NCBI GenBank assembly: GCA_964016885.1
Contig: OZ024751.1
Location: forward strand, 13,888,001 to 13,952,000
Length of the DNA stretch: 64,000 bases
Source of the DNA: Eledone cirrhosa
Taxonomy: Eukaryota
Direction of reading: 5' to 3'
Each line of letters opens with the position of its first letter. Positions within the stretch are counted from its first letter, which is position 1. A program made the translations under genes and the position numbers. The notes below the pieces were generated by a model. That model saw nothing but the letters and a program-made list of their open reading frames with translations. It made no database searches and had not been told where the DNA came from. Of this stretch, positions 55,314-59,571 are shown piece by piece.

Positions 55314-58300
55314 GAATATAGACATAGAATATTCGAAAATATTCTGTATGTTTATAATAAACATTTTGAAGACCTAATCGCTATAGAATAGAATACGTCA
55401 CGTATTACAATTAGATTCTCGATAAAAGCAAGGGAAGTAATCTACGCGTTTCATTCTCGTTAGAAATCATCAGGACCACATATCCAGTGCTTTTATCGAG
55501 AATGACACAGCTAGAGACTTATAGAATACTTAGCTGTGTACAGGAACTGGTTTGAAAGAGCGGTTGCCGGTCCGGCAGAAATTAGAAATTGGAATAAATG
55601 CTCTGAAATAGCGATATATATGTGAATATAGACATAGAATATTCGAAAATATTCTGTATGTTTATAATAAACATTTTGAAGACCTAATCGCTATAGAATA
55701 GAATACGTCACGTATTACAATTAGATTCTCGATAAAAGCAAGGGAAGTAATCTACGCGTTTCATTCTCGTTAGAAATCATCAGGACCACATATCCAGTGC
55801 TTTTATCGAGAATGACACAGCTAGAGACTTATAGAATACTTAGCTGTGTACAGGAACTGGTTTGAAAGAGCGGTTGCCGGTCCGGCAGAAATTAGAAATT
55901 GGAATAAATGCTCTGAAATAGCGATATATATGTGAATATAGACATAGAATATTCGAAAATATTCTGTATGTTTATAATAAACATTTTGAAGACCTAATCG
56001 CTATAGAATAGAATACGTCACGTATTACAATTAGATTCTCGATAAAAGCAAGGGAAGTAATCTACGCGTTTCATTCTCGTTAGAAATCATCAGGACCACA
56101 TATCCAGTGCTTTTATCGAGAATGACACAGCTAGAGACTTATAGAATACTTAGCTGTGTACAGGAACTGGTTTGAAAGAGCGGTTGCCGGTCCGGCAGAA
56201 ATTAGAAATTGGAATAAATGCTCTGAAATAGCGATATATATGTGAATATAGACATAGAATATTCGAAAATATTCTGTATGTTTATAATAAACATTTTGAA
56301 GACCTAATCGCTATAGAATAGAATACGTCACGTATTACAATTAGATTCTCGATAAAAGCAAGGGAAGTAATCTACGCGTTTCATTCTCGTTAGAAATCAT
56401 CAGGACCACATATCCAGTGCTTTTATCGAGAATGACACAGCTAGAGACTTATAGAATACTTAGCTGTGTACAGGAACTGGTTTGAAAGAGCGGTTGCCGG
56501 TCCGGCAGAAATTAGAAATTGGAATAAATGCTCTGAAATAGCGATATATATGTGAATATAGACATAGAATATTCGAAAATATTCTGTATGTTTATAATAA
56601 ACATTTTGAAGACCTAATCGCTATAGAATAGAATACGTCACGTATTACAATTAGATTCTCGATAAAAGCAAGGGAAGTAATCTACGCGTTTCATTCTCGT
56701 TAGAAATCATCAGGACCACATATCCAGTGCTTTTATCGAGAATGACACAGCTAGAGACTTATAGAATACTTAGCTGTGTACAGGAACTGGTTTGAAAGAG
56801 CGGTTGCCGGTCCGGCAGAAATTAGAAATTGGAATAAATGCTCTGAAATAGCGATATATATGTGAATATAGACATAGAATATTCGAAAATATTCTGTATG
56901 TTTATAATAAACATTTTGAAGACCTAATCGCTATAGAATAGAATACGTCACGTATTACAATTAGATTCTCGATAAAAGCAAGGGAAGTAATCTACGCGTT
57001 TCATTCTCGTTAGAAATCATCAGGACCACATATCCAGTGCTTTTATCGAGAATGACACAGCTAGAGACTTATAGAATACTTAGCTGTGTACAGGAACTGG
57101 TTTGAAAGAGCGGTTGCCGGTCCGGCAGAAATTAGAAATTGGAATAAATGCTCTGAAATAGCGATATATATGTGAATATAGACATAGAATATTCGAAAAT
57201 ATTCTGTATGTTTATAATAAACATTTTGAAGACCTAATCGCTATAGAATAGAATACGTCACGTATTACAATTAGATTCTCGATAAAAGCAAGGGAAGTAA
57301 TCTACGCGTTTCATTCTCGTTAGAATAAACATACAGAATATTTTCGAATATTCTATGTCTATATTCACATATATATCGCTATTTCAGAGCATTTATTCCA
57401 ATTTCTAATTTCTGCCGGACCGGCAACCGCTCTTTCAAACCAGTTCCTGTACACAGCTAAGTATTCTATAAGTCTCTAGCTGTGTCATTCTCGATAAAAG
57501 CACTGGATATGTGGTCCTGATGATTTCTAACGAGAATGAAACGCGTAGATTACTTCCCTTGCTTTTATCGAGAATCTAATTGTAATACGTGACGTATTCT
57601 ATTCTATAGCGATTAGGTCTTCAAAATGTTTATTATAAACATACAGAATATTTTCGAATATTCTATGTCTATATTCACATATATATCGCTATTTCAGAGC
57701 ATTTATTCCAATTTCTAATTTCTGCCGGACCGGCAACCGCTCTTTCAAACCAGTTCCTGTACACAGCTAAGTATTCTATAAGTCTCTAGCTGTGTCATTC
57801 TCGATAAAAGCACTGGATATGTGGTCCTGATGATTTCTAACGAGAATGAAACGCGTAGATTACTTCCCTTGCTTTTATCGAGAATCTAATTGTAATACGT
57901 GACGTATTCTATTCTATAGCGATTAGGTCTTCAAAATGTTTATTATAAACATACAGAATATTTTCGAATATTCTATGTCTATATTCACATATATATCGCT
58001 ATTTCAGAGCATTTATTCCAATTTCTAATTTCTGCCGGACCGGCAACCGCTCTTTCAAACCAGTTCCTGTACACAGCTAAGTATTCTATAAGTCTCTAGC
58101 TGTGTCATTCTCGATAAAAGCACTGGATATGTGGTCCTGATGATTTCTAACGAGAATGAAACGCGTAGATTACTTCCCTTGCTTTTATCGAGAATCTAAT
58201 TGTAATACGTGACGTATTCTATTCTATAGCGATTAGGTCTTCAAAATGTTTATTATAAACATACAGAATATTTTCGAATATTCTATGTCTATATTCACAT

Positions 58301-59570
58301 ATATATCGCTATTTCAGAGCATTTATTCCAATTTCTAATTTCTGCCGGACCGGCAACCGCTCTTTCAAACCAGTTCCTGTACACAGCTAAGTATTCTATA
58401 AGTCTCTAGCTGTGTCATTCTCGATAAAAGCACTGGATATGTGGTCCTGATGATTTCTAACGAGAATGAAACGCGTAGATTACTTCCCTTGCTTTTATCG
58501 AGAATCTAATTGTAATACGTGACGTATTCTATTCTATAGCGATTAGGTCTTCAAAATGTTTATTATAAACATACAGAATATTTTCGAATATTCTATGTCT
58601 ATATTCACATATATATCGCTATTTCAGAGCATTTATTCCAATTTCTAATTTCTGCCGGACCGGCAACCGCTCTTTCAAACCAGTTCCTGTACACAGCTAA
58701 GTATTCTATAAGTCTCTAGCTGTGTCATTCTCGATAAAAGCACTGGATATGTGGTCCTGATGATTTCTAACGAGAATGAAACGCGTAGATTACTTCCCTT
58801 GCTTTTATCGAGAATCTAATTGTAATACGTGACGTATTCTATTCTATAGCGATTAGGTCTTCAAAATGTTTATTATAAACATACAGAATATTTTCGAATA
58901 TTCTATGTCTATATTCACATATATATCGCTATTTCAGAGCATTTATTCCAATTTCTAATTTCTGCCGGACCGGCAACCGCTCTTTCAAACCAGTTCCTGT
59001 ACACAGCTAAGTATTCTATAAGTCTCTAGCTGTGTCATTCTCGATAAAAGCACTGGATATGTGGTCCTGATGATTTCTAACGAGAATGAAACGCGTAGAT
59101 TACTTCCCTTGCTTTTATCGAGAATCTAATTGTAATACGTGACGTATTCTATTCTATAGCGATTAGGTCTTCAAAATGTTTATTATAAACATACAGAATA
59201 TTTTCGAATATTCTATGTCTATATTCACATATATATCGCTATTTCAGAGCATTTATTCCAATTTCTAATTTCTGCCGGACCGGCAACCGCTCTTTCAAAC
59301 CAGTTCCTGTACACAGCTAAGTATTCTATAAGTCTCTAGCTGTGTCATTCTCGATAAAAGCACTGGATATGTGGTCCTGATGATTTCTAACGAGAATGAA
59401 ACGCGTAGATTACTTCCCTTGCTTTTATCGAGAATCTAATTGTAATACGTGACGTATTCTATTCTATAGCGATTAGGTCTTCAAAATGTTTATTATAAAC
59501 ATACAGAATATTTTCGAATATTCTATGTCTATATTCACATATATATCGCTATTTCAGAGCATTTATTCCA

Positions 59571-59571
<1 letters not shown>
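55314..59571. mobile_element. Retrozyme-like array: 310-bp HHR unit, about 6.5 copies (- sense) plus about 7.25 copies (+ sense), inverted at about 57325
   Basis: GACATAGAAT at 55321, 55631 ... 57181; ATATTCACAT at 57361 ... 59531. No ORF; one HHR per unit; flanked by (TA)n. Confidence 0.92.
57487..57575 (+). ncRNA. Minimal type I hammerhead (representative; repeats every 310 bp; first minus copy at 55415-55503)
   Basis: attctcgataaaagca..gtggtc CTGATGA t ttct-aacg-agaa t GAAA cgcg TA gattac..tgcttttatcgagaat; palindromic ACGCGT and a 16-bp outer helix. Confidence 0.92.

What the first reader, a model, noticed from the sequence alone, without database searches (positions are those of the whole stretch)
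55314..59571. 4.3-kb mirror-image array of a 310-nt hammerhead unit: a candidate retrozyme (circular-RNA retroelement)
Seen: 13 complete, apparently identical type I hammerheads, one per 310-bp non-coding unit (6 on the minus strand, 7 on the plus strand). Each has a 6-bp stem I extended by a 16-bp helix and a palindromic ACGCGT stem III. The rest of the unit is hairpin-rich (catagaatatt/aatattctgtatg, acacagcta/tagctgtgt, aatacg/cgtatt, tgccgg/ccggca, atcgcta/tagcgat). Known: metazoan non-LTR retrozymes are tandem repeats of a few hundred nt with minimal type I HHRs that release monomers able to circularise, and short palindromic stem III is thought to favour dimeric cleavage. Inference: a circular 310-nt RNA was copied by rolling-circle reverse transcription, probably by a PLE RT, from both target ends. 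The two arms begin and end at different phases of the unit, which fits a circular template.
Basis: partly seen in the sequence, partly recalled or inferred. Interest (0 to 1): 0.92.

Follow-up and report, generated by a model that had tools for sequence, protein, structure and literature searches.

The report
Mirror-image ribozyme retroelement insertions
This is one of over a thousand young copies of a small self-cutting RNA element, and the way each copy sits in the genome suggests that a host retrotransposon enzyme copies a looped RNA outward from both sides of a DNA cut at once.

Summary
Observation confirmed: two exact arrays of a 310-nt hammerhead unit, 55313-57325 (minus, 6.5 units) and 57325-59572 (plus, 7.25 units), lie in a (TA)n tract. 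The locus is one of at least 1,226 young insertions. Of 103 insertions examined, 88 are simple mirror images, 14 single-armed, 1 complex. This is the Penelope-like element (PLE) 'tail' at one end, also seen in two autonomous PLE families of this genome. The inner ends are random and independent, which argues against fold-back. Both arms share one haplotype in 65 of 69 cases (shuffle mean 8). In 12 loci a private variant fills every unit, as a monomer template predicts; about seven loci show multimeric or switched templates. Inherited variants and older sister families keep the hammerhead fold. Best reading: a non-LTR retrozyme inserted by twin-primed, rolling reverse transcription by a PLE enzyme. 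Cleavage, a circular RNA and the partner PLE are not shown. New variant of a known kind.

The parts
55313..57325 (-). Left arm: 6.49 exact copies of the 310-nt unit. RNA-sense 5' end at 57325 (unit position 288, counting from the first base after the ribozyme cut); 3' end at 55313 (position 130, the short, tail-less end).
57325..59572 (+). Right arm: 7.25 exact copies. 5' end at unit position 88; 3' end at position 165 (the long, tailed end).
57325..57325 (.). Head-to-head junction, 1-nt microhomology. The two inner ends lie at unrelated unit positions (288 and 88), so this is not a fold-back palindrome.
   Evidence: family pattern
57548..57857 (+). One repeat unit from cut site to cut site (predicted monomer or circle), 35% GC, non-coding.
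57487..57575 (+). Type I hammerhead domain (first plus copy): core from 57517, cut after GUA at 57547, 6-bp stem I, 16-bp distal helix, palindromic stem III. Other cores start at 57827, 58137, 58447, 58757, 59067, 59377 (+) and 57023, 56713, 56403, 56093, 55783, 55473 (-).
57645..57664 (+). 8-bp hairpin with UUCG loop just 5' of the two start sites (GCAA or GCCA loop in sister families, with compensatory changes). Candidate part of the signal that the reverse transcriptase recognises (inferred).
   Evidence: helix 6
59538..59572 (+). 35-nt tail (unit positions 131-165) present at the right end only: the stretch between the two inferred start sites of reverse transcription.
   Evidence: PLE tail in PMC8557442 and PMC11167929
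55201..55313 (.). Left (TA)n target tract
59571..61210 (.). Right (TA)n-rich target tract (right boundary approximate)

Best explanation
A young non-autonomous retroelement of the animal (non-LTR) retrozyme kind, mobilised in trans by the endonuclease-reverse transcriptase of a Penelope-like element (PLE). SHOWN in sequence: over 1,200 near-identical insertions in (TA)n; most have two head-to-head arms; one arm ends at unit position about 130-139 and the other at 165-172; inner ends are random and joined by short microhomology or short fills; both arms nearly always carry the same haplotype in every unit; the hammerhead fold is under selection. INFERRED: tandem transcripts self-cleave as dimeric hammerheads into 310-nt monomers, which are circularised. 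The PLE protein, probably a dimer, nicks both strands of a TA tract. Each 3' end primes cDNA at one of two fixed internal sites 26-35 nt apart on the RNA. Each enzyme goes round the template (up to 27 turns seen) and stops at random. The two cDNAs anneal by microhomology and copy each other, leaving a mirror image with a tail at one end. A minority of events use uncut multimers or switch template.
For: Dispersal: 1,226 exact tail-end-plus-TA sites, reversed control 0; 1,208 and 497 matches to two short-end patterns, the first inflated by an internal variant. Layout: of the first 100 tail ends on C1, 71 have a short end within 16 kb in divergent orientation, 0 pair with another tail end, chance 0.005 each. 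In 100 stretches there are 88 mirror insertions, all long+short, 47 of them not chosen for having both ends. A one-ended 30-40 bp tail, an inverted 5'-truncated copy and TA targets are PLE marks (PMC8557442). A PLE protein starts at two internal sites that bound the tail, nicks and extends both strands, and is predicted to be a dimer (PMC11167929). Two autonomous PLE families here show the same layout (6 of 12 loci with both ends). Template: same haplotype in both arms in 65 of 69, 24 haplotypes, shuffle mean 8.0, maximum 19 of 10,000; 12 of 79 informative loci have a private variant in every unit of both arms (4-22 copies); 176 inner ends are uniform (p = 0.62), 3 within 5 nt of the cut site. 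Inner ends of the two arms are independent: 8 of 88 within 15 nt, 8.8 expected. Ribozyme: array-fixed substitutions in its stems keep pairing at 7 of 7 sites and none is in the core; single-unit changes keep 2, break 16, and 3 hit the core (Fisher p = 3e-5). Across 15 family and sister units 90.7% of cells pair, 20 of 36 pairs change on both sides, and C3-G8 swaps to U3-A8 in 7.
Against: Seven loci do not fit a single monomer circle. L074, L085 and L180 carry unit-limited variants at the same ordinal in both arms; L062 and L101 share a single-unit variant at different ordinals; L034 and L036 switch haplotype within the tailed arm only. 14 insertions have one arm only. No autonomous PLE with a matching terminal repeat was found: the Hydra-type family has a 137-nt tail and no significant match to the unit, and the second family has a roughly 60-nt tail and only a short look-alike motif. 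The window's haplotype has U-U at the base of stem II and Rfam does not recognise the motif. 8 of 9 predicted Xenopus retrozymes did not cleave in vitro (bioRxiv 2026.07.22.740005), and hammerhead cleavage was not needed for PLE insertion in vitro (PMC11167929). Matching haplotypes could also come from two molecules of one source locus. In one search three rows are close kin, and one measure (further pair types) did not exceed the shuffles (439 of 500).
Confidence: 0.62

Rival explanations
1. Same element and same PLE twin priming, but the usual template is an uncut linear multimer transcribed from an existing array. No circle is needed, and the hammerhead is a carried-over terminal-repeat feature.
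For: Mirror-ordered unit mosaics in L074, L085 and L180, and offset shared variants in L062 and L101. Unprocessed RNA was the dominant PLE substrate in vitro (PMC11167929). Inner ends that avoid the cut site fit uncut RNA as well as a circle.
Against: One-to-one copying cannot fix a new variant in all units or lengthen arrays. Yet 24 haplotypes exist, 12 loci have private variants in every unit (up to 22 copies), and arms reach 27 units. Only 2 single-unit variants are mirrored against 67 unmirrored in the overlap. Inherited variants are filtered for hammerhead pairing.
Confidence: 0.2
2. The template is a cleaved linear monomer, and the enzyme jumps repeatedly from its 5' end to the 3' end of the same or another monomer, which mimics a circle.
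For: It explains homogeneity and the occasional haplotype switch (L034, L036, L085). Inherited 1-nt insertions lie two bases after the cut site in 6 loci.
Against: Run-off at the cut site should be common, but 3 of 176 inner ends lie within 5 nt of it, against about 6 by chance. The unit-to-unit joints at the cut site are exact in the window.
Confidence: 0.1
3. The inversion arises by self-priming or fold-back, as proposed for PLEs from junction palindromes, or arrays grow afterwards as satellite DNA by unequal exchange.
For: Model in PMC3846280 and satellite growth in bioRxiv 2026.07.22.740005. A few variants repeat in non-adjacent units (L059, L062, L063), so some exchange within arrays may occur.
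Against: The inner ends of the two arms are independent (8 of 88 near-palindromic, 8.8 expected). Either arm can be the longer one (tailed arm longer in 48 of 88). Private variants span both inverted arms of very young loci.
Confidence: 0.05
4. Assembly or fold-back read artefact.
For: Exact inverted tandem arrays in simple repeats are hard to assemble. No strand-changing joint was listed in the four contig sets laid on one unit.
Against: The junctions differ among the 88 insertions (apart from one local duplicate, L068) and are not palindromic. End phases are fixed, and unit-level single variants are preserved. Contigs of run X1 show TA loose ends at unit positions 139 and 170 (X1 may be the source sample).
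Confidence: 0.02

Closest known systems
Metazoan non-LTR retrozymes (Cervera and de la Pena 2020, PMC7229834; Li et al. 2026, bioRxiv 10.64898/2026.07.22.740005)
   Same: Non-coding tandem unit of 150-450 bp, GC under 50%, one type I hammerhead per unit, no LTR; weak palindromic stem III and a U-U at the base of stem II as in the axolotl motifs; co-occurs with PLEs; copying of a circle by a PLE enzyme was proposed.
   Different: In the parts read, neither paper reports mirror-image arrays, fixed end phases or a tail ('tail' and 'orientation' 0 hits in Li et al.; 'opposite' 0 in Cervera). Their PLE link rests on co-occurrence and terminal-repeat homology; here it rests on insertion footprints, and no homologous PLE terminal repeat was found. 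Circles were shown there, not here.
EN+ Penelope-like elements (Craig et al. 2021 PMC8557442; Arkhipova et al. 2013 PMC3846280; Frangieh et al. 2024 PMC11167929)
   Same: Head-to-head inverted 5'-truncated copy, 30-40 bp tail at one end, (TA)n targets, tandem copies, hammerhead, two internal start sites.
   Different: No protein is encoded; both arms are multi-unit arrays; the tail is at exactly one end in 88 of 88 mirror insertions rather than 'optional'; junctions are not palindromic, against the self-priming model.
Non-autonomous Chlamys PLEs such as MRC1 (PMC8557442)
   Same: Non-autonomous PLE derivatives with multicopy head-to-tail insertions.
   Different: [quoted passage not shown]
L1 twin priming (recalled, no paper read)
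   Same: Both target ends prime cDNA on the RNA and the cDNAs join by microhomology, giving a 5' inversion.
   Different: In L1 it is a minority event with a variable second site and a poly(A) first site; here it is the rule, with two fixed internal sites and multiple turns.

Membership tests
non-LTR retrozyme | Tandem non-coding unit of 150-450 bp, GC under 50%, no LTR | tested here: met
   310 nt, 35% GC, longest ATG frame 30 aa
non-LTR retrozyme | Type I hammerhead with intact core in every unit | tested here: met
   13 cores; fold; covariation. G10.1-C11.1 is replaced by U-U or A-U; no Rfam hit.
non-LTR retrozyme | Dispersed multicopy mobile family | tested here: met
   at least 1,226 end sites; 437 unit matches from 40 of 130 candidates scored
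non-LTR retrozyme | Self-cleavage as monomer or dimer | not testable with these tools
   only selection on the fold is shown
non-LTR retrozyme | Expressed as linear and circular monomer RNA | tested here: inconclusive
   340-nt contigs that go back 310 in three runs of unknown kind fit tandem DNA as well as a circle
non-LTR retrozyme | Target-site duplication, when present longer than 4 bp | tested here: inconclusive
   cannot be read in (TA)n flanks
PLE-mobilised element | Head-to-head inverted 5'-truncated copy | tested here: met
   88 mirror, 14 single-armed, 1 complex
PLE-mobilised element | 30-40 bp tail at one end (two start sites) | tested here: met
   ends at 125-140 and 165-172, one of each, 88 of 88; 0 tail-tail pairs among 100 tail ends
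PLE-mobilised element | (TA)n target | tested here: met
PLE-mobilised element | Sequence homology to the terminal repeat of an autonomous PLE | tested here: inconclusive
   no match in the Hydra-type family or beside 30 of 5,215 sister-motif sites; only a short look-alike in the second family, judged by eye; other families not surveyed
autonomous PLE | RT plus GIY-YIG open reading frame | tested here: not met
   longest ATG frame 30 aa

The most novel reading that the evidence does not exclude
The family is a natural record of obligate two-way rolling-circle retrotransposition: a PLE enzyme dimer primes both ends of one cut TA tract at two fixed sites on a single circular ribozyme RNA, and each subunit rolls round it independently. 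If so, the PLE tail and the PLE head-to-head inversion are one event, and this is direct genomic evidence that a genome-encoded circular RNA is the transposition template.
Probability: 0.42. Interest if true: 0.82.

Novelty: new variant of a known kind. Interest (0 to 1): 0.62.

Why it matters
How PLEs make their tandem and inverted insertions is stated as unresolved (PMC8557442), and copying of retrozyme circles by a PLE enzyme is a hypothesis (PMC7229834). This family offers over 1,200 very young insertions of a 310-nt template marked by haplotypes. They tie the inversion to the two start sites (one tail per insertion), argue against the published fold-back model for this family, and show that both arms come from the same template variant. 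The template is small enough for the existing in vitro PLE assay. A retrotransposon enzyme that writes many turns of a small RNA circle into a double-strand cut from both sides would also interest people who build RNA-templated genome-writing tools.

Tried and rejected
Rfam: no hit at the gathering score in the window, no hammerhead among 6 matches at E up to 10, none in L157. Sequencing runs: no RNA holder listed. Four contig sets laid on one unit show presence in four studies but cannot tell a circle from tandem DNA, and list no strand-changing joint. Pfam gave no relevant family for 8 PLE-like frames, and solved structures gave nothing below E 0.3 for one of them, so clade labels rest on motifs read against PMC8557442. 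Partner search: the Hydra-type family, the Neptune/Nematis-type family and 30 sister-motif loci gave no homologous terminal repeat. One fusion of a sister unit with a PLE fragment (L152) has two tailed ends and may be two insertions, so it was not used. Rejected: permuted outer ends (fixed); fold-back; one arm being a copy of the other (either may be longer); run-off at the ribozyme cut. The 941-nt breaks printed are an artefact of my run-merging and were redone. Look-ups of earlier findings by place and by sequence were empty.
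Full report
Observation. The window holds a minus-strand array at 55313-57325 (6.49 units) and a plus-strand array at 57325-59572 (7.25 units). Both match one 310-nt unit exactly and carry 13 type I hammerhead cores, with the predicted cut after GUA at 57547. 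I number the unit from the first base after the cut. The RNA-sense 5' ends meet at 57325 (positions 288 and 88, one shared base). The 3' ends face outward into (TA)n at positions 130 and 165. The hammerhead domain folds with a 6-bp stem I and a 16-bp helix (z = -5.3). Rfam does not detect it. The window lies on contig C11 of a 3.0-Gb genome. From a recalled SINE at 1-949 I take the host to be octopus-like; that label comes from no call.

It is a family. A DNA search gave 437 unit matches from 40 of 130 candidates scored. Exact patterns joining a unit end to TA gave 1,226 sites for the long end, and 1,208 and 497 for two short-end patterns (the first also counts an internal variant); reversed controls gave 0. 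Among the first 100 long ends on C1, 71 have a short end within 16 kb in divergent orientation and none pairs with another long end; chance pairing is 0.005. I analysed 100 stretches including the window: 19 chosen by unit identity, 40 chosen from the pattern lists, nearly all as pairs, 20 of the 29 unpaired long ends, and 20 of the 67 unpaired short-end matches; three were extended. They hold 88 mirror insertions, 14 single arms (one abuts a run of N and cannot be judged) and one complex mirror with an inner double inversion (L051, left out). All 88 have one short end (125-140) and one long end (165 in 65, 167 in 12, 166-172 in 11). Of these, 47 were not chosen for having both ends: 20 of 21 insertions, 15 of 20 stretches and 12 of 20. 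Two of the 88 (L068) look like a local duplicate.

Those ends are the PLE signature. PMC8557442 (passages and section 11 read) describes an inverted 5'-truncated copy, a 30-40 bp tail at one end and (TA)n targets, and calls the mechanism undefined. PMC11167929 (parts 1-2 of 4 read) shows that a PLE protein nicks and extends both strands and starts at two internal sites that bound the tail. Autonomous families in this genome do the same. A Hydra-type family (RWR, DKT and CxCX5C motifs; 830-aa frame; 6,673-nt unit; 131 scored copies at 98-100%) has ends 137 nt apart, one on each side in the two insertions seen at both ends. A Neptune/Nematis-type family (1,167-aa frame; 150 scored copies at 97-100%) has ends about 60 nt apart, one on each side in 6 of 12 loci; the other loci showed one matched end, tandem ends or none. 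Neither shares a terminal repeat with the unit, so the partner is not identified.

The centre. The 176 inner ends are spread evenly over the unit (p = 0.62) and 3 lie within 5 nt of the cut. Junctions are 1-5 nt microhomology (50), blunt (15), filled (20) or longer microhomology (3). Most fills over 3 nt are copied from the unit; two are foreign, one of them a repeat clustered on contig C25. The two inner ends are independent: 8 of 88 lie within 15 nt of each other, 8.8 expected. This argues against the self-priming fold-back model that PMC3846280 (passages read) draws from junction palindromes. The tailed arm is the longer one in 48 of 88 (medians 4.4 and 3.1 units, maximum 27). Two independent cDNAs joined by microhomology fit best, as in L1 twin priming (recalled).

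The template. In 65 of 69 insertions with both arms over one unit, the arms carry the same majority haplotype out of 24 (shuffle mean 8.0, maximum 19 of 10,000). One miss, L107, is a trimming artefact, since one search shows the variant in both arms. In 12 of 79 informative loci a variant seen in no other sampled locus fills every unit of both arms (4-22 copies). Single-unit variants occur at 4.3e-4 per base, so drawing one parental unit would give about 0.13 private variants per locus, close to the 0.15 seen. That is my arithmetic, and it assumes the singles are real and were present in parents. One-to-one copying of a multimer cannot fix such variants. Against a pure monomer circle: L074, L085 and L180 have unit-limited variants at the same ordinal in both arms; L062 and L101 share one at different ordinals; and L034 (17 of 23 units) and L036 (4 of 6) switch haplotype in the tailed arm only. 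So most events pass through a monomer bottleneck and a minority use multimers or switch molecules. Concordance does not prove one molecule; two molecules from one source would look the same.

The ribozyme is under selection. Substitutions fixed across arrays keep or restore pairing at 7 of 7 hammerhead-stem sites, often through G-U, and none touches the core; the others near it fall at the variable position 7 and in loop II. Single-unit changes keep pairing 2 times, break it 16 times and hit the core 3 times (p = 3e-5). An older sister group (5,215 motif matches; 30 loci read, output partly cut) has units of about 320 nt with the same two ends and, in several loci, the same mirror layout. On 15 aligned units, 3 from this family, 90.7% of cells pair, 20 of 36 pairs change on both sides, and slid controls pair at most 45%. 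C3-G8 becomes U3-A8 in 7 rows; the count of further pair types was not above shuffles. Stem III stays palindromic in most sister sequences as read from the alignment, which fits dimeric cleavage (PMC4209133, passages read).

Other data. No cleavage or RNA test was possible. Contigs of three other studies contain the unit joined to itself, at depths 365, 2.4 and 13.8, in runs of unknown kind; tandem DNA gives the same contig. Run X1, possibly the source sample, shows TA loose ends at positions 139 and 170.

Comparison and novelty. The unit meets every sequence-level criterion for a non-LTR retrozyme (PMC7229834: part 2 of 6, Discussion and passages read). A PLE origin was argued from co-occurrence and homology in bioRxiv 2026.07.22.740005 (parts 1-3 of 5 and a term search). 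Retrozymes, PLE inversions and tails are each known. I did not find the combination in print: mirror-image retrozyme arrays, one tail per insertion, haplotype-matched arms and independent inner ends (searches; most hits seen as listings only). The library lacks most subscription papers, I did not consult Repbase, and the supplements of these papers were not seen; any of them may describe such arrays.

Verdict. Real and not an artefact; a new variant of a known kind. Retrozyme moved by a PLE enzyme from both target ends: about 0.9. Monomer circle as the main template: about 0.62 overall. Interest 0.62.

Noticed in passing
window 21924-23290: A second mirror-image array between TA tracts, with a 478-nt unit and a different type I hammerhead (cores at 22209 minus, 22470 and 22948 plus); related copies in L060, L103, L108, L110. 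Probably another retrozyme family with the same layout.
   Followed up: partly
window 53697-55320 and 37750-39377: The left flank is a 96.6% duplicate of a stretch 16 kb upstream and carries a PLE-type hammerhead (55102, 39157; relatives at 19779 and 6049 minus). The upstream copy's TA tract has no retrozyme, which fits insertion into an existing TA tract.
   Followed up: partly
window 40714-46815 and 61204-64000; G000 C6:49.52-49.57 Mb, C1:183.73-183.76 Mb: Young Hydra-type PLE family with many 830-aa open frames, a 6.67-kb unit with a long microsatellite-like untranslated part, tandem arrays of several copies and mirror insertions with a 137-nt tail; my pattern found no canonical hammerhead core in it.
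   Followed up: partly
window 3413-4958; L158-L169: Young Neptune/Nematis-type PLE family (frames up to 1,167 aa) with a roughly 60-nt tail. In the window the two arms of the mirror come from two different related families.
   Followed up: partly
L063:1349-1620 and the centre of L043: Foreign sequence captured at the mirror junction: 272 nt of a repeat clustered on contig C25 (40 scored copies, 96-100%; no Rfam hit), and 196 nt not traced. Suggests template switching to other RNAs.
   Followed up: partly
L126-L155, L109, L110: Older sister retrozymes (5,215 motif matches) with U3-A8 or C3-G8 hammerhead cores and longer palindromic stem III; a 163-nt period is also seen at C1:56.078 Mb.
   Followed up: partly
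window 15876-17653, 32397-33655, 35460-37451, 7490-8482, 26184-28614: Further PLE-like RT and GIY-YIG frames and inverted pieces between TA tracts. A hammerhead at 15935 (minus) matches the unit's core at 26 of 28 bases.
   Followed up: no
L051, L057, L079, L081, L087, L102, L183: Inherited 1-nt insertions two bases after the ribozyme cut site (C or T), which reshape stem I; possibly scars of ligation.
   Followed up: no
window 9095-13334: A LINE-like element on the minus strand, with RT and endonuclease-like frames and a glutamine-rich upstream frame (label from recalled motifs).
   Followed up: no
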